This document shows positions 5,791 through 48,656 of a stretch of 64,000 bases of DNA, piece after piece. A model generated the notes under the pieces. The model saw only the letters and a program-made list of their open reading frames with translations, did not search any database and was not told the DNA's origin. The position numbers and the translations under genes are program-made. Source of the stretch: a virus; IMG/VR virus record IMGVR_UViG_3300035670_000058, positions 50,681 to 114,680 of that record. The stretch is one strand, 5' to 3'. Position 1 is the stretch's first letter. Each line of letters starts with the position of its first letter.

Positions 5791-6144
5791 ATGGATACAA
5801 TCACACTAGTATTCTTTACCCTTCTGGGTGGGGGATTGCTCATTGCTTTTATTATAGAAGTGTTTGAGCTTAAAGGGCAGAAACAAGCGTTTGAAACTTG
5901 GTCTGCGCTTATTAATGATTACATCGAAAGCTATGAAGAGTTAAAGAAAGCAATCAATACCAACGCTAATCTTCTAAGAGTTGCCGGCGAAACAATCAAT
6001 GATCATGATCGTGTCTTACGAGTGATGTCAATTGTTGTTGATACACACTCAGAGATACTAAAACTTAACCCGCAGCTACGAGATCAACTTGAGCATCCCC
6101 CTGTCGATGGATTTATTGTGACAGTAGGGGAAGACGTTGAGTAA
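5791..6144 (+). CDS. membrane-anchored coiled-coil protein
   Basis: N-terminal hydrophobic helix. Confidence 0.55.
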   Translation: MDTITLVFFTLLGGGLLIAFIIEVFELKGQKQAFETWSALINDYIESYEELKKAINTNANLLRVAGETINDHDRVLRVMSIVVDTHSEILKLNPQLRDQLEHPPVDGFIVTVGEDVE

Positions 6145-6349
6145 ACGCTTTAGAATTTTAGCTACCGTTCTTATCTACAAAGACTACGAAAAAAATGAAG
6201 TACAGTATTACAATAGTGAAGATGAGTACATTATGTCTGTTGTCAATGATTGGCAAGAAGATAGCTATCTTAAATTAGCCGATGCACTTTCTTGGGATTA
6301 TGAATCAGTAAACGGCATTGAAGTTTCTGTGATTGTTGAGGACGACTAA
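6137..6349 (+). CDS. hypothetical protein
   Basis: ORF in operon. Confidence 0.55.
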   Translation: MSKRFRILATVLIYKDYEKNEVQYYNSEDEYIMSVVNDWQEDSYLKLADALSWDYESVNGIEVSVIVEDD

Positions 6350-6394: not shown

Positions 6395-6742
6395 ATGTAT
6401 GTTAAGAAAGCAAGACTAGTATGCAGAAAATGTACTAAGCCATTAGATAGAAATGGATTTCTTTGCTCTTCTTGCCATGTACATTCTAATTCTAAAACTA
6501 GGAATAAAAAATATAAAGGAAGCCCGTTAGTATATGCGTTCTTTGACGGGGGAGAAGCCGTTTATGTTGGAAGGGGATCACGCTATCGTGTCAATAAGCA
6601 TCGGTTTACTTCATCTTGGTGGACTCCTAACTTACTAGTGATAACGATGGACTGCAAAGACGAATGGGAAGCGATGGAATACGAGGGTAAGTGGGGTGGA
6701 TTGTACCACCCTAAAATGAATAAAGACGGTTATAGATATTAG
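6395..6742 (+). CDS. GIY-YIG-like nuclease with N-terminal zinc finger
   Basis: LVYAF...VYVGRG...R...H...E...HPKMN. Confidence 0.6.
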   Translation: MYVKKARLVCRKCTKPLDRNGFLCSSCHVHSNSKTRNKKYKGSPLVYAFFDGGEAVYVGRGSRYRVNKHRFTSSWWTPNLLVITMDCKDEWEAMEYEGKWGGLYHPKMNKDGYRY

Positions 6743-45855: not shown

Positions 45856-47418
45856 ATGGCTAGATTGAATTACACGCGAAAGGCTGTTACCTCGCAGCGA
45901 CTCGCGGAAGAGACTACGACCAACTATGAAGGTGCTGTGGCGTTCAAGTTGACAGACCACCAGCAACTGATTGAACAGGTCTTAGGTGCGTTTTGGAACG
46001 AGAATCTGTTCTACACCAAGGGCAAGGATCAGACCGACTCTATTGTCGGATTGATCAAGTCCGTGGCGACAGTCGATCCAAAGTTTCCATTGCAGTTAGC
46101 AGCATATGCTAGAAACGTTCTCTATATGCGCACAACTCCACAGGTATTGCTTGTGGAGGCTTCGCGGATCGCTGCGTGCAAACCATTTGTGGTTGAGTAC
46201 ACGCCTAAGATTGTGAAGCGGGCGGATGAATTGGCCGAAGTTGTTGCGTATTACAGCGCACACTATGGTACTGATCCGAAAAAGCCGGGAAAGACACACG
46301 TCAATTTCCCTAACTCACTAAAGAAGGGACTTGCCAAAGCATTTACCAACTTTGATGAGTATCAACTGAACAAGTATGACTCTTCCAAGTCATCTGTCAC
46401 TCTGGGTCAGGTTGCACAACTTGTGCATCCTCCTATTGGCAAGGCACTCTATGAGTATCTTACCAAGGGTGTTGTTGATCCTGAGGCTATGCCAAAGACA
46501 GCCGCTCTCAAGGCTCTCTTGGCAAAGGATAAGATTGATGACGAGGCTTTGGAGTTAATTGCAAAGAGTGGAATCACTTGGGAGTCAATGATTTCCAAGT
46601 TTGGTTCTACCAAGGAAACTTGGGAGTTGGTTGCACCGAATATGGGCTACATGGCCCTATTGCGAAACCTACGAAACTTTGAGCAGAAGGGTGTTGATCT
46701 TGATCCAATCTTGAAGCGTATTGCTGATGAGAATGAGGTCAAGAGAAGCAAGCAGTTGCCGTTCCGGTTCTACTCTGCGTACCGTGAGGTTACTGAGCAG
46801 AAGATTCAGAGAGCAATTGCTCAGGCGCTTGAGAAGTCAATCTCCAACGTTCGACTTGACGGTCGGACTGCGGTTATGGTAGACTTGTCTGCGAGCATGA
46901 ATTCTCCGCTATCTGCACATTCAAAGGTATCATATCGGGATATCGCGTGCGTTCTTGGTGCAGTTGTTGTCAAGAAGTCTAGCAACTCAATTGCTATTGG
47001 CTTCGGGGACAGTGCCAAGACTGCTCGTATCAATCCTGATGATACGATGATGACAAACATGGAGAAAATCCAGAATCTGAATGTTGGTCACTCAACCAAT
47101 GCCTATCTGGCATTTGATGAGTTGGGCAGCAAAGAAGTTGATCGGGTAATTCTCATCTCCGATATGCAGTGCTATACTACAAATTGGGGCTGGGGGCTGT
47201 CTAGCGATAGCACTGTAAAGGATCGCTGGGCTAGATACGTCAAAATGTATCCGAATGCAAAGTTGTACTCGCTAGACGTTAGTGCCTACGGTACAGCACA
47301 GACACCATCTGATGCGAAGAACACCGTTCTTCTCAACGGTTGGTCAGACAAGATCATCGATCTCATCAATGTCTATGACAAGCGTGATGCGATGGTCGAA
47401 GAGATTCGTAAGTTTTAA
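45856..47418 (+). CDS. TROVE-domain Ro60/Rsr RNA-binding protein with C-terminal vWA
   Basis: NYEGAVAF, YAR...MRT, RADE, FDEYQLNKY, TWE, MALLRNLRN, SKQLPFRF, DLSASM MIDAS, ISDMQ, GWSD. Confidence 0.92.
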   Translation: MARLNYTRKAVTSQRLAEETTTNYEGAVAFKLTDHQQLIEQVLGAFWNENLFYTKGKDQTDSIVGLIKSVATVDPKFPLQLAAYARNVLYMRTTPQVLLVEASRIAACKPFVVEYTPKIVKRADELAEVVAYYSAHYGTDPKKPGKTHVNFPNSLKKGLAKAFTNFDEYQLNKYDSSKSSVTLGQVAQLVHPPIGKALYEYLTKGVVDPEAMPKTAALKALLAKDKIDDEALELIAKSGITWESMISKFGSTKETWELVAPNMGYMALLRNLRNFEQKGVDLDPILKRIADENEVKRSKQLPFRFYSAYREVTEQKIQRAIAQALEKSISNVRLDGRTAVMVDLSASMNSPLSAHSKVSYRDIACVLGAVVVKKSSNSIAIGFGDSAKTARINPDDTMMTNMEKIQNLNVGHSTNAYLAFDELGSKEVDRVILISDMQCYTTNWGWGLSSDSTVKDRWARYVKMYPNAKLYSLDVSAYGTAQTPSDAKNTVLLNGWSDKIIDLINVYDKRDAMVEEIRKF

Positions 47419-47420
47419 TA

Positions 47421-47496
47421 GATTAGGTAGTGTAAGCGACGGTTACTTCTTCCTGCAACTAAGACCCGTTCCGTTGCTGCTTTTAATCTCCTAATC
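47421..47496 (+). ncRNA. Y-RNA-like element 1 (minimal; anticodon-like hairpin cargo)
   Basis: GATTAGG/CCTAATC stem, TAGTGT/TAATCT internal loop, TACTTC. Confidence 0.65.
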
Positions 47497-47500
47497 ATAT

Positions 47501-47573
47501 GGCCCCATCGTCTAATGGCTTAGGATATGACTCTTTCAAGGTAATGATCGGAGTTCGATTCTCCGTGGGGCTA
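47501..47573 (+). tRNA. tRNA-Glu(TTC), no encoded CCA
   Basis: GGCCCCA/TGGGGCT, loop CTTTCAA, GTTCGATTC. Confidence 0.8.
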
Positions 47574-47593
47574 CAGTTTTTATTTGGAGATTT

Positions 47594-47893
47594 ATGGAAT
47601 GGAAAGAGCATTATGCTCTATATAAAGAAGGTTATCTAGAACGAAATAAAAAGAAGCGAGAAGCATCTAATCGCCTAATTAGGGAAGCAAAAAATAAGCC
47701 CTGCGCCGATTGCGGGGTAAAGTATCCCTACTATGTTATGGATTTAGATCATATTGAGGGGCAAAAGACGGGAACTCTCGCTCATATGAAATCGTACTCT
47801 GAGAAAAGAGTACAAGAAGAAATAAATAAATGCGAGGCAGTTTGCTCAAACTGTCATCGAATACGAACATTTAATCGTAATAGCGTAGTGTGA
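47594..47893 (+). CDS. HNH endonuclease
   Basis: PCADCG...MDLDH...KCEAVCSNCHRIRT. Confidence 0.85.
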   Translation: MEWKEHYALYKEGYLERNKKKREASNRLIREAKNKPCADCGVKYPYYVMDLDHIEGQKTGTLAHMKSYSEKRVQEEINKCEAVCSNCHRIRTFNRNSVV

Positions 47894-48050
47894 GAATCGG
47901 GTACTTCTACACCTTTGTTTTGTTTTGAACACACAACTCACCAGCATGGATATGTCAGCACGGGAGGATGGCCCTTGTGACTCTTAGGAAAGGACTAAGT
48001 GACGAATCGGAAGTAAGACGATAAAGCCCCCGATCCAGTTAATCTCGCTA
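47881..48050 (+). ncRNA. Y-RNA-like element 2 (non-tRNA cargo of about 120 nt)
   Basis: TAGCG/CGCTA stem, TAGTGT/TAATCT, ATCGGG/CCCGAT, TACTTC. Confidence 0.6.
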
Positions 48051-48064
48051 GATATTAGATATTA

Positions 48065-48204
48065 TATAGGATAGTGTAGGATACAGTTACTTCGCTTGGG
48101 ACGACAAGACGGAGGTTCGAATCCTTCTTCCCCAACCAAATCGATGGGGAATGGTGCAATGGCAGCACATGTAAAATTTCTGTGCCCGTTCTAATCTTCC
48201 TATA
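48065..48204 (+). ncRNA. Y-RNA-like element 3 (YrlA-like; permuted tRNA-Pro cargo)
   Basis: TATAGGA/TCCTATA stem, TAGTGT/TAATCT, TACTTC, T-arm and CCA preceding the D-arm. Confidence 0.75.
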
Positions 48205-48228
48205 ACTGTTAATATATATGGATAGTCA

Positions 48229-48433
48229 TCGCTTATCCGGTAGTAACCATTACATAATGCAGTAAATATATAAGTAGACATTACCGACTTCACCACCGGC
48301 CCTCTACTTTGACATAGAGGAATTGGTTATTCTCCTGCTTGGTTACTACCGGATGCGCGACGGCGCAGAGTCCGTAATGCTGATGAATTGATGTTCCGCG
48401 ATAGCGTCCGGTAAATCTAAATTGAGGTAAGCG
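48229..48433 (+). ncRNA. unclassified structured RNA candidate
   Basis: perfect 15-bp stem 48235-48249/48340-48354 and inner hairpins. Confidence 0.45.
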
Positions 48434-48441
48434 GTAGTTTT

Positions 48442-48574
48442 TAAGTGTAGTGTCTCGTAACGGCTACTTCGTAAATCAATGGATAGATTATTGTACTCTT
48501 AATACAACTGTTGTCGGTTCGAATCCGACCGAATATCGCCGCAAGGCTAACCCGTTACAAACTAATCTCACTTA
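48442..48574 (+). ncRNA. Y-RNA-like element 4 (tRNA-Lys(CTT)-like cargo lacking a full acceptor end)
   Basis: TAAGTG/CACTTA stem, TAGTGT/TAATCT, GTAACGG/CCGTTAC, D, anticodon and T arms in normal order. Confidence 0.7.
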
Positions 48575-48579
48575 TCTAT

Positions 48580-48656
48580 TCCCGGTTGGTGTAATTGGTA
48601 AGCATTCTTGTCTGTTAAACAAGCGGCTGAAGGTTCGAATCCTTCACCGGGAGCCA
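48580..48656 (+). tRNA. tRNA-Asn(GTT)
   Basis: TCCCGGT/ACCGGGA, loop CTGTTAA, CCA. Confidence 0.9.

What the first reader, a model, noticed from the sequence alone, without database searches (positions are those of the whole stretch)
48065..48204. Circularly permuted tRNA-Pro(TGG) that reconstitutes a perfect cloverleaf
Seen: the 3' half (CG-CTTGGGA-CGACA-AGAC-GGAGG-TTCGAAT-CCTTC-TTCCCCA-A-CCA, about 48093-48138) precedes a 6-nt linker and the 5' half (TGGGGAA-TG-GTGC-AATGGCA-GCAC-A-TGT, 48145-48172). The acceptor stem TGGGGAA/TTCCCCA is perfect. Joining TGT to CG gives an anticodon stem TGTCG/CGACA with a TGG anticodon. Known: YrlA mimics are permuted relative to tRNA, and permuted tRNA genes occur in some algae and archaea. 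Inference: this copy keeps both a CCA and a full anticodon arm. It could be a very faithful decoy, or a precursor that is cut and ligated (RtcB-type) into a working tRNA, which would be unusual for a phage.
Basis: partly seen in the sequence, partly recalled or inferred. Interest (0 to 1): 0.8.

Follow-up and report, generated by a model that had tools for sequence, protein, structure and literature searches.

The report
Phage Y RNA mimicking permuted tRNA-Pro
The "permuted tRNA-Pro" is real, but it is most likely the tRNA-like module of a YrlA-type Y RNA encoded next to a phage Ro60 gene, unusual in also copying the anticodon arm and CCA end, and not a tRNA gene that is cut and re-ligated.

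Summary
Window 48093-48138 (anticodon loop to ACCA), a 6-nt linker, then 48145-48172 (acceptor 5' strand to anticodon-stem start) rejoin into a 74-nt cloverleaf that ARAGORN calls tRNA-Pro(UGG).

The context changes the reading. A 520-aa Ro60/Rsr gene (TROVE + Ro60 vWA) ends about 650 nt upstream on the same strand. The element is the third of four small RNA units sharing one scaffold. T arm before D arm, a closed acceptor stem, and ends paired into a protein-binding stem are the known YrlA Y-RNA layout.

Ten homologues beside related Ro60 genes (27-75% identity) keep every helix with compensatory changes. ACCA occurs in only 2 of 11 units; two close the acceptor stem with a tetraloop. The "anticodon" varies: UGG, UAG, UGU, UAU, GUU.

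The conserved new feature is an anticodon arm built without ligation, as a three-way junction. The two parts of the stem total 5 bp in 7 of 11 units, and the loop is 7 nt in 9 of 11.

The phage genome has no RtcB, Rnl1/Rnl2 ligase, splicing endonuclease or CCA-adding enzyme, and it carries a normal tRNA-Pro(UGG).

Verdict: a new variant of a known kind. Cut-and-ligate maturation is unlikely but untested.

The parts
45856..47418 (+). Ro60/Rsr orthologue gene (520 aa), the presumed protein partner
   Evidence: Pfam TROVE E 5e-34 and Ro60 vWA E 1.2e-07. tblastn finds Ro60 homologues in 104 phage records, all below 60% identity; the rows shown are 27-34%.
48065..48071 (+). P1 5' strand (UAUAGGA) of the terminal helix
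   Evidence: Pairs 7/7 with 48198-48204. P1 is fully paired in all 11 homologues with different sequences.
48072..48078 (+). Conserved 5' internal-loop motif UAGUGUA, the presumed Ro60-binding determinant
   Evidence: Motif [CU]AGUG is present at the start of all four units in this window and of the units in 8 related loci. It sits where YrlA has GNCGAAN0-1G. The distant locus L026 and phage CcrColossus have GCGUAG here.
48079..48086 (+). P2 5' strand (GGAUACAG)
   Evidence: Pairs 7/8 with 48180-48187. P2 covaries across homologues, for example AUCAG/CUGAU and GAUAGUUCU/AGAACUAUC.
48087..48092 (+). Junction J1, UUACUU; contains the conserved UUAC (YUAY)
   Evidence: UACUUC or a close variant precedes the cargo in every unit. 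Chen 2014 and Wang 2018 describe a conserved YUAY/UA at the equivalent YrlA position.
48093..48103 (+). Anticodon-like hairpin: CG, 7-nt loop CUUGGGA (U33, UGG, G37), CG
   Evidence: Stacked on ACA/UGU it completes a 5-bp stem. Across homologues the stem totals 5 bp in 7/11, the loop is 7 nt in 9/11, and U33 and R37 are present in all 10 units that have an anticodon-like loop.
48104..48106 (+). ACA, 3' strand of the proximal anticodon stem (positions 41-43)
   Evidence: Pairs with UGU at 48170-48172. In the nearest relative L009, C42/G28 has changed to A/U.
48107..48110 (+). Variable loop AGAC
   Evidence: ARAGORN cloverleaf of the rejoined sequence.
48111..48127 (+). T arm (GGAGG-UUCGAAU-CCUUC)
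   Evidence: Recovered by RNAalifold on an unguided alignment. Four of its 5 pairs show double compensatory changes.
48128..48134 (+). Acceptor 3' strand (UUCCCCA)
   Evidence: Pairs 7/7 with 48145-48151. A 7-bp stem is present in 10/11 homologues, and every pair shows compensatory changes.
48135..48144 (+). Loop closing the acceptor stem: A73-like A, CCA, then AAUCGA
   Evidence: Read directly. ACCA occurs only here and in L014. The others have AACA, ACAA, ACUU, AUUC or CUCU, or GAAA/GUUA tetraloops.
48145..48151 (+). Acceptor 5' strand (UGGGGAA). The predicted RNase P site is 48144|48145.
   Evidence: The pairing is shown. Cleavage is inferred from M. smegmatis YrlA, which has a 7-bp stem and is cut by RNase P (Chen 2014).
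48154..48168 (+). D arm (GUGC-AAUGGCA-GCAC)
   Evidence: Recovered by RNAalifold; three of its 4 pairs show double changes.
48170..48172 (+). UGU, 5' strand of the proximal anticodon stem (positions 27-29)
   Evidence: Pairs with 48104-48106.
48173..48179 (+). Junction J2, AAAAUUU
   Evidence: An A-rich stretch follows the anticodon-stem 5' strand in OWN, L009, L008, L005, L006 and L014.
48180..48187 (+). P2 3' strand (CUGUGCCC)
48188..48197 (+). 3' internal-loop motif (GUUC-UAAUCU)
   Evidence: UAAUCU-like motif conserved at the 3' end of all units.
48198..48204 (+). P1 3' strand (UCCUAUA)
47421..47496 (+). Sister unit 1: same scaffold, simple loop cargo
Evidence: 5' motif at 47428 and 3' motif UUAAUCUCCUAA.
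47881..48050 (+). Sister unit 2: same scaffold, about 120-nt cargo conserved in L005 and L008
48442..48574 (+). Sister unit 4: same scaffold carrying a tRNA-Lys(CUU)-like body in normal order, joined through a weak 4-bp acceptor stem
   Evidence: ARAGORN calls tRNA-Lys(ctt) at 48465-48537. Rfam matches only model positions 4-67.

Best explanation
The element is a YrlA-class bacterial-type Y RNA of about 140 nt (48065-48204), made from the same strand as the phage Ro60/Rsr gene that ends about 650 nt upstream. It is probably co-transcribed with the neighbouring tRNAs and three sister units. Its two ends pair (P1, a conserved UAGUGUA/UAAUCU internal loop, then P2) into the stem that the phage Ro60 is expected to bind. 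The middle folds into a tRNA-shaped module in the YrlA topology: T arm first, an acceptor stem closed by a loop, then the D arm. In this phage clade the module also carries an anticodon-arm mimic. A short hairpin (CG-CUUGGGA-CG) stacks on the 3-bp helix ACA/UGU to give a 5-bp stem with a 7-nt U-turn loop. The scaffold leaves from the 5' strand of that stem as the third arm of a three-way junction, so no ligation is needed to display a complete tRNA shape. By analogy with other Ro60/Y RNA particles, the module would tether a tRNA-binding factor or host PNPase to Ro60, or act as a tRNA look-alike during infection. Because this copy has a 7-bp acceptor stem followed by ACCA, RNase P may open the loop at 48144|48145 and trimming may expose a CCA end. 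That would give a two-piece RNA, as seen for Mycobacterium smegmatis YrlA. Shown here: the sequence, the gene neighbourhood and the conserved, covarying helices. Inferred: Ro60 binding, the folded shape, RNase P cutting and the function.
For: 1. A Ro60/TROVE + vWA gene lies on the same strand at 45856-47418. YrlA RNAs are defined as lying within 4 kb of rsr on the same strand, with T before D and a closed acceptor stem (Chen 2014). 2. Four units with one scaffold occur only in the 1.1 kb after rsr. 3. Ten homologous permuted units lie next to Ro60 genes of 27-75% identity. P1, P2, T, acceptor and D helices pair in essentially all, with many compensatory changes. RNAalifold on an unguided alignment recovers T, closed acceptor and D, with 14 of 16 pairs showing double changes. 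Against the nearest relative L009 there are four compensatory double substitutions: 1-72, 13-22, 28-42 and T-stem pair 3. 4. The split anticodon stem totals 5 bp in 7/11 although the break point moves (1|4, 2|3, 3|2, 5|0). The loop is 7 nt in 9/11, with U33 and R37 in all 10 anticodon-like loops. 5. The YrlA region of Caulobacter phage CcrColossus, a phage that the 2025 phiLo paper names (citing Chen 2014) as having a Ro60 homologue and Y RNA-like ncRNAs, has the same scaffold: UCCAGG, GGCGUAG, UUUCUUC, T arm, closed acceptor, D arm, CCUGGA. 6. The phage Ro60 of Thermus phage phiLo binds phage Y-like RNAs and host PNPase (PMC12135203).
Against: 1. The published YrlA 5' motif GNCGAAN0-1G is absent from the unit; only a related purine-rich motif occupies that place. 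2. No Rfam family other than a weak tRNA match hits the region. 3. The proposed fold is not the thermodynamic optimum: -28.3 against -41.0 kcal/mol for the MFE. The 196-nt fold is also no more stable than shuffles, z -0.98; this is common for tRNA-like folds. 4. P1, P2 and the anticodon stem were segmented by eye, which favours pairing. 5. No expression, Ro60 binding or processing data exist, and the phage is uncultured with no known host.
Confidence: 0.82

Rival explanations
1. It is a genuine circularly permuted tRNA-Pro(UGG) gene. The scaffold would be cut away, U48172 ligated to C48093 by a host RtcB-type ligase to give a circle, and RNase P plus 3' trimming would open the acceptor loop to yield a working tRNA.
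For: The rejoined sequence is a clean cloverleaf with U33, UGG, G37, A73 and encoded CCA. By alignment score it is closest to the phage's own tRNA-Pro, 28 against 16 or less for other tRNAs. Every homologue can also be rejoined into an ARAGORN-callable tRNA. Wang et al. 2018 raised this possibility for YrlA in general, and rsr is often next to rtcB in bacteria.
Against: The phage genome has no RtcB, Rnl1, Rnl2 or splicing endonuclease. No bacterial enzyme is known for the excision step. The junction has 6-7-nt single strands plus a hairpin, not a 3-4-3 bulge-helix-bulge. The same scaffold flanks cargo that is not tRNA-like (units 1 and 2), and a tRNA-Lys-like body is attached by its acceptor end. 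The UAG version in L005 lacks a long variable arm. A canonical tRNA-Pro(UGG) already exists at genome 4940-5013. U1-A72 differs from that tRNA's C1-G72. ARAGORN is permissive: dozens of arbitrary rejoin points also gave calls.
Confidence: 0.04
2. It is a decoy for host tRNA-targeting defences such as anticodon nucleases. The anticodon-arm mimic would be bait, displayed on a stable Ro60-bound scaffold, and different phages would display different anticodon loops according to the nucleases they face. This is a functional refinement compatible with the Y RNA reading.
For: The anticodon-loop signature (7 nt, U33, R37) is conserved while the triplet differs: UGG, UAG, UGU, UAU, GUU. A sister unit displays a tRNA-Lys(CUU)-like anticodon arm, and from my own knowledge tRNA-Lys is a frequent nuclease target (PrrC, PARIS). 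The phage carries 25 tRNAs, consistent with pressure on the tRNA pool.
Against: This is purely inferential. No defence system or host is known. UUGGG is shared by five homologues, which may reflect common descent and not host-specific tuning. Two homologues (L015, L026a) have no closing hairpin at this position: the stem is formed wholly by the 5' and 3' strands, and the anticodon-like loop (7 nt in L015, 11 nt in L026a) is left open on its 5' side.
Confidence: 0.12
3. It is a decaying relic of two tandem tRNA-Pro genes, the 3' half of one and the 5' half of the next, with no present function.
For: The layout is what a tandem-tRNA origin predicts (the dimeric-tRNA model cited). tRNAs in this genome sit 1-3 nt apart.
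Against: Compensatory substitutions maintain every helix across Ro60 relatives down to 27% identity. That requires selection on the RNA structure.
Confidence: 0.02

Closest known systems
YrlA Y RNAs of bacteria and phages (Chen et al. 2014, PMC4201824; S. Typhimurium YrlA structure, Wang et al. 2018, bioRxiv 10.1101/312249)
   Same: Both are encoded near rsr on the same strand. Both have the T arm 5' of the D arm, an acceptor-like stem closed by a loop, 5' and 3' ends paired into the Ro60-binding stem, a conserved YUAY before the cargo, and tRNA genes as neighbours. The CcrColossus phage version shares the scaffold motifs.
   Different: S. Typhimurium YrlA 'lacks the anticodon loop' and a CCA end. 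This unit has a 5-bp/7-nt anticodon-arm mimic made by a three-way junction and an encoded ACCA. The Ro60-site motif is UAGUGUA, not GNCGAAN0-1G. There are four scaffolded units per genome.
Mycobacterium smegmatis YrlA (Chen et al. 2014)
   Same: Both have a 7-bp acceptor stem. That RNA is cut by RNase P in vitro and in vivo, its 5' half gains a CCA tail, and both halves stay bound to Rsr.
   Different: Here CCA is genomically encoded and does not need to be added. Processing is untested here. An anticodon-loop mimic is not reported for the M. smegmatis RNA in the text read.
Deinococcus radiodurans Yrn1
   Same: Chen 2014 draw it with a possible 'anticodon arm' having a 5-bp stem.
   Different: Its loop is 6 nt, it has no full D arm and no V arm, and its tRNA likeness is weak. 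Here the whole cloverleaf is present.
Circularly permuted tRNA genes of Cyanidioschyzon merolae and Thermofilum pendens (Soma 2007, Chan 2011, as cited)
   Same: The 3' half precedes the 5' half, a short intervening piece joins the 3' end to position +1, and leader and trailer pair.
   Different: Those use a bulge-helix-bulge motif, the archaeal/eukaryal splicing endonuclease and a ligase. Here there is no BHB and none of these enzymes in the phage. The flanks are a conserved protein-binding scaffold shared with non-tRNA cargo.
Two-piece tmRNA from permuted ssrA genes (my own knowledge; not checked in papers here)
   Same: It is a bacterial precedent for a precursor in which the CCA-bearing 3' piece lies upstream of the 5' piece and the linking loop is removed, leaving a chargeable tRNA-like domain held together by base pairs.
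   Different: This unit has no mRNA-like reading frame or pseudoknots. ARAGORN finds no tmRNA in the window.

Membership tests
YrlA-type Y RNA | Encoded within about 4 kb of a Ro60/TROVE gene on the same strand | tested here: met
   The TROVE + Ro60 vWA ORF at 45856-47418 (+) ends 647 nt before the unit.
YrlA-type Y RNA | tRNA-like module with T arm 5' of D arm and a closed acceptor-like stem between them | tested here: met
   Conserved with covariation in 11 units.
YrlA-type Y RNA | 5' and 3' ends pair into a stem carrying the Ro60-binding site | tested here: met
   P1 is paired 7/7 and P2 7/8. Both covary across homologues.
YrlA-type Y RNA | GNCGAAN0-1G motif near the 5' end | tested here: not met
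   There is no match in 47401-48600. UAGUGUA(G) occupies the place. L026 and CcrColossus have GCGUAG, one step from the published motif.
YrlA-type Y RNA | Conserved YUAY upstream of the T arm | tested here: met
   UUAC lies at 48087-48090. UUAC or AUAC is present in 9 of 11 homologues.
YrlA-type Y RNA | Conserved tRNA tertiary nucleotides (U8, A14, G18G19, T-loop UUCRA, Y48) | tested here: met
   Read from the segments: U8, A14, GG in the D loop, UUCGAAU and C48. The Levitt pair would be A15/C48, which is not canonical.
YrlA-type Y RNA | Bound by Rsr/Ro60 in vivo | not testable with these tools
   Needs immunoprecipitation or a gel-shift assay.
Circularly permuted tRNA gene | Rejoining the halves gives a canonical cloverleaf with an anticodon | tested here: met
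   ARAGORN calls tRNA-Pro(tgg), 74 nt.
Circularly permuted tRNA gene | Bulge-helix-bulge motif at the leader/trailer junction | tested here: not met
   The junction has J1 of 6 nt plus a hairpin on one strand and J2 of 7 nt on the other. It is not two 3-nt bulges around a 4-bp helix.
Circularly permuted tRNA gene | Splicing endonuclease and RNA ligase available | tested here: not met
   The phage genome has no PF01974, PF01139, PF09414 or PF09511 match. Host enzymes are unknown.
Circularly permuted tRNA gene | tRNA identity conserved among orthologues | tested here: not met
   Anticodon triplets are UGG, UAG, UGU, UAU and GUU. ACCA is present in 2/11, and two units have tetraloop-closed acceptor stems.
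Circularly permuted tRNA gene | Mature ligated tRNA detected | not testable with these tools
   Needs RT-PCR or tRNA-seq.

The most novel reading that the evidence does not exclude
In this phage clade the YrlA module is a near-complete tRNA that is matured. RNase P opens the acceptor loop and trimming exposes the encoded CCA. The result is a two-piece, Ro60-tethered RNA with an anticodon arm that can be aminoacylated (by ProRS here) or engage other tRNA-specific machinery. The more extreme form has the scaffold excised and the ends ligated into a free working tRNA, which would be the first permuted tRNA gene outside algae and archaea.
Probability: 0.15. Interest if true: 0.85.

Novelty: new variant of a known kind. 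Interest (0 to 1): 0.5.

Why it matters
What the tRNA-like domain of bacterial Y RNAs is for remains unanswered. So does the question, raised by Wang et al. 2018, of whether any YrlA is processed into something closer to a real tRNA.

This phage clade supplies the most tRNA-like YrlA seen so far: a 7-bp acceptor stem, A73-CCA, full D and T arms, and an anticodon arm with U33-UGG-G37. It comes with a natural series of relatives that keep the arm but move its break point and change the triplet.

That gives three things:
- A concrete substrate for RNase P, CCA trimming, charging and ligation tests.
- Near-direct support for the idea that YrlA arose from a tandem tRNA transcript.
- A hint that the anticodon arm itself, not only the elbow, is under selection in phage Y RNAs.

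It also cautions annotators that such units are invisible to tRNA finders, while sister units can be miscalled as tRNA-Lys.

Tried and rejected
- blastn of the region against 50,697 phage records found no match.
- An exact 25-nt scan of IMG/VR found only an unrelated, normally ordered tRNA-Pro.
- A search for a second copy of either half in the genome, to test for a tRNA split by an insertion, found none.
- Single-sequence folding does not give the cloverleaf and is no more stable than shuffles.
- I asked whether each homologue's module is closest to the canonical tRNA of the same anticodon, as a test of 'captured tRNA cargo'. The result was inconclusive. Only the window's own copy leans to tRNA-Pro, and narrowly once tRNAs from related loci are included (24 against 21.5).
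- The promoter and terminator scan was at background level, so transcript ends are not defined.
- ARAGORN on all rejoin points proved too permissive to serve as a score.
- Two reviews, Sim & Wolin 2018 and Sim et al. 2020, are not held.
- The idea that flanks 48083-48089 and 48204-48210 (ACAGUUA/UAACUGU) form the stem was dropped. That pairing is incompatible with P1 and is not conserved.

Full report
**Observation**

A tRNA 3' half lies at 48093-48138. It comprises two stem bases (CG), the loop CUUGGGA, CGACA, the variable loop AGAC, the T arm GGAGG-UUCGAAU-CCUUC, the acceptor 3' strand UUCCCCA, then A and CCA. Six bases (AAUCGA) follow. A tRNA 5' half lies at 48145-48172: the acceptor 5' strand UGGGGAA, UG, the D arm GUGC-AAUGGCA-GCAC, A, and UGU.

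Joined 48172 to 48093, the 74-mer is drawn by ARAGORN as a full cloverleaf, tRNA-Pro(tgg). In its native order ARAGORN and Rfam do not call it. Rfam gives only a weak partial tRNA match of 18.9 bits. Neither half has a second copy in the genome at up to 7 mismatches, so this is not a tRNA gene split by an insertion.

**Setting**

The window is the right-hand 64 kb of a 114,680-bp virus record with 127-bp terminal repeats. The record has 25 tRNA genes, including a normal tRNA-Pro(tgg) at genome 4940-5013. No cultured phage is close: there is no blastn match, DNA polymerase is at most 31% identical, and Ro60 is below 60% identical.

The decisive neighbour is the 520-aa ORF at 45856-47418 on the same strand. 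It carries a TROVE domain (E 5e-34) and a Ro60 vWA domain, which makes it a Ro60/Rsr orthologue.

Between it and the next protein gene lie tRNA-Glu, a small HNH-like ORF, tRNA-Asn, tRNA-Gln and four small units. Each unit begins with [CU]AGUG, then 7-18 nt, then UACUUC. Each ends with UAAUCU(C/U), 0-2 further nt, then CUA. The convincing copies of this motif occur only here in the genome. The present finding is its third unit.

**What is known**

Chen et al. 2014 defined YrlA Y RNAs by several features:
- They lie within 4 kb of rsr on the same strand, in 254 bacteria and 22 phages.
- Their ends pair into the Rsr-binding stem.
- Their middle mimics tRNA with the T arm before the D arm and a closed 'acceptor' stem.

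M. smegmatis YrlA has a 7-bp acceptor stem. It is cut by RNase P and receives CCA in vivo.

Wang et al. 2018 solved the S. Typhimurium module. They stated that YrlA lacks an anticodon loop and a free CCA end. They cited the model that YrlA arose from a dimeric tRNA transcript. [quoted passage not shown]

A 2025 study showed that the Ro60 of Thermus phage phiLo binds two phage Y-like RNAs and host PNPase.

**Homologues**

Using the Ro60 protein and a three-sequence profile, I fetched related loci from IMG/VR and JGI metagenomes, with Ro60 identity of 27-75%. A scan for a T arm followed by a closed 7-bp hairpin found a permuted tRNA-like unit beside Ro60 in L009, L008, L005, L006, L014, L015, L022 and twice in L026. 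L016 was found by its scaffold motif.

I segmented the 11 units by coordinates, with these results:
- P1 is fully paired in all 11, with at least seven different sequences.
- P2 has at most one mismatch in each.
- The T stem is 5/5 in 10 units.
- The acceptor stem is 7/7 in 10 units.
- The D stem is 4/4 in all 11.

RNAalifold on the raw MAFFT alignment independently recovers the T, closed-acceptor and D helices. Fourteen of its 16 pairs show double compensatory changes.

Between the window's copy and its nearest relative L009 there are four compensatory double changes: 1-72 U-A to C-G, 13-22 C-G to U-A, 28-42 G-C to U-A, and T-stem pair 3 A-U to G-C. The structure is therefore under selection.

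The YrlA region of Caulobacter phage CcrColossus has the same scaffold: UCCAGG, GGCGUAG, UUUCUUC, T arm, closed acceptor, D arm, CCUGGA. The 2025 phiLo paper, citing Chen 2014, names this phage among those with Ro60 homologues and Y RNA-like ncRNAs. This ties the family to published YrlA.

**What is and is not conserved**

ACCA after the acceptor stem is found only in the window's copy and in L014. The other nine vary:
- L009 and L015 have AACA.
- L008 and L005 have ACAA.
- L026b has ACUU, L026a has AUUC and L016 has CUCU.
- L006 and L022 close the stem with GAAA and GUUA tetraloops.

The loop triplet also varies:
- UGG in five units: the window's copy, L009, L008, L015 and L016.
- UAG in L005, whose body has no long variable arm.
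- UGU in L006 and L022.
- UAU in L014.
- GUU in L026b.

What is conserved is the form of an anticodon arm. The bases after the D arm pair with those before the variable loop. A hairpin supplied by the 5' part of the RNA extends that helix. The two parts add up to 5 bp in 7 of 11 units although the break point moves (1|4, 2|3, 3|2, 5|0). The loop is 7 nt in 9 of 11. U33 and a purine at 37 are present in all 10 units that have an anticodon-like loop.

The 'perfect anticodon arm' is therefore a selected feature of this clade. It is produced by a three-way junction, not by joining ends. The scaffold leaves from the 5' strand of the stem.

**Enzymes**

The phage genome has no match to RtcB, the Rnl2-type or T4 Rnl1-type RNA ligases, the tRNA splicing endonuclease, or the CCA-adding enzyme family. 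The control genomes matched these families, weakly in the case of Rnl1.

**Interpretation**

The best-supported reading, at about 0.8, is a YrlA-class Y RNA. Its scaffold binds the phage Ro60, and its cargo is an unusually complete tRNA mimic.

Membership is supported by five features: neighbourhood, topology, the terminal stem, the YUAY element, and direct similarity to the CcrColossus scaffold. One published feature fails. The GNCGAAN0-1G motif is absent, replaced at the same position by UAGUGUA. More distant relatives and CcrColossus have GCGUAG there, which is closer to the published motif.

RNase P opening at 48144|48145 is a reasonable inference for this copy. It has a 7-bp stem, an ACCA that the enzyme favours, and the M. 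smegmatis precedent. It is not shown.

Full cut-and-ligate maturation is unlikely, at about 0.04. There is no BHB motif and no phage enzymes for it. The scaffold is shared with non-tRNA cargo. The anticodon and CCA are not conserved. A canonical tRNA-Pro is already present.

A decoy role against tRNA-targeting host nucleases is an attractive functional refinement, but it is only an inference.

**Weak points**

- The proposed fold is 12.7 kcal/mol above the computed MFE.
- P1, P2 and the anticodon stem were aligned by eye.
- Similarity of the module to the phage's tRNA-Pro is modest: 54/74 identities. The alignment score is 28 against 16 or less within the genome, but only 24 against 21.5 when tRNAs of related loci are included.
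- Transcript ends are undefined.
- The host is unknown.

**Novelty and score**

The class, its occurrence in phages, the permuted topology, RNase P and CCA processing in one species, and even the speculation about tRNA-like maturation are all in the literature. What is new is a YrlA subgroup that adds a conserved anticodon-arm mimic and, in this copy, an encoded ACCA, so that the rejoined sequence passes as tRNA-Pro(UGG). The unit sits within a four-unit array on one scaffold.

I rate it a new variant of a known kind, with interest 0.5.

Noticed in passing
window 48205-48447; L005 6300-6440; L008 6286-6520; L009 3476-3645; L014 2992-3210: A conserved RNA directly follows the permuted unit in five phages. 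It has an invariant 5' AGUCAUC and an invariant 3' core CUACCGGAUG-GCGCGACGGCGCA around a variable insert. The 5' partner of the CCGGUAG/CUACCGG stem tolerates mismatches while the 3' strand never changes. OWN and L014 share a further 3' extension of about 85 nt that is nearly identical, although their Ro60 proteins are only 57% identical. There is no Rfam match. It lacks the UAGUG/UAAUCU scaffold.
   Followed up: partly
window 48442-48574 (ARAGORN tRNA-Lys(ctt) 48465-48537): This ARAGORN 'tRNA-Lys' is not a normal tRNA. Only 4 acceptor pairs form (UUCG/CGAA), and Rfam matches only model positions 4-67. It sits inside the same Y scaffold, attached through its acceptor end, with flanks GUAACGG/CCGUUAC pairing. 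Homologues are in L005 and L009. It may parallel the 'b7a-tRNA' idea mentioned by Wang et al. 2018.
   Followed up: partly
window 47881-48050; L005 about 5975-6150; L008 about 5840-6010: Scaffold unit 2 carries a cargo of about 120 nt with a long block conserved across three phages, including GACUCUUAGGAAAGGACUAAGUGACGAAUCGG. There is no Rfam match and its function is unknown.
   Followed up: no
window 47594-47893 (+): A 99-aa ORF with a CxxC...DH...CxxCH pattern, typical of HNH endonucleases, is inserted between tRNA-Glu and unit 2. Pfam gave no hit at E 0.001.
   Followed up: no
L016 about 6017-6160; L006 about 6602-6720; L015 about 2150-2260: Further scaffold units in related phages carry only a T arm plus a closed acceptor-like hairpin, without a D arm. 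This recalls the description of YrlB as having 'a possible T-arm'.
   Followed up: no
whole genome (G000): The 25 tRNA genes lie mainly in two clusters, genome 3.6-7.5 kb and 95.5-104.4 kb, with a single tRNA-Lys(ttt) at about 70.6 kb. Only the second cluster, around rsr, contains Y-like units. The terminal repeat is 127 bp.
   Followed up: partly
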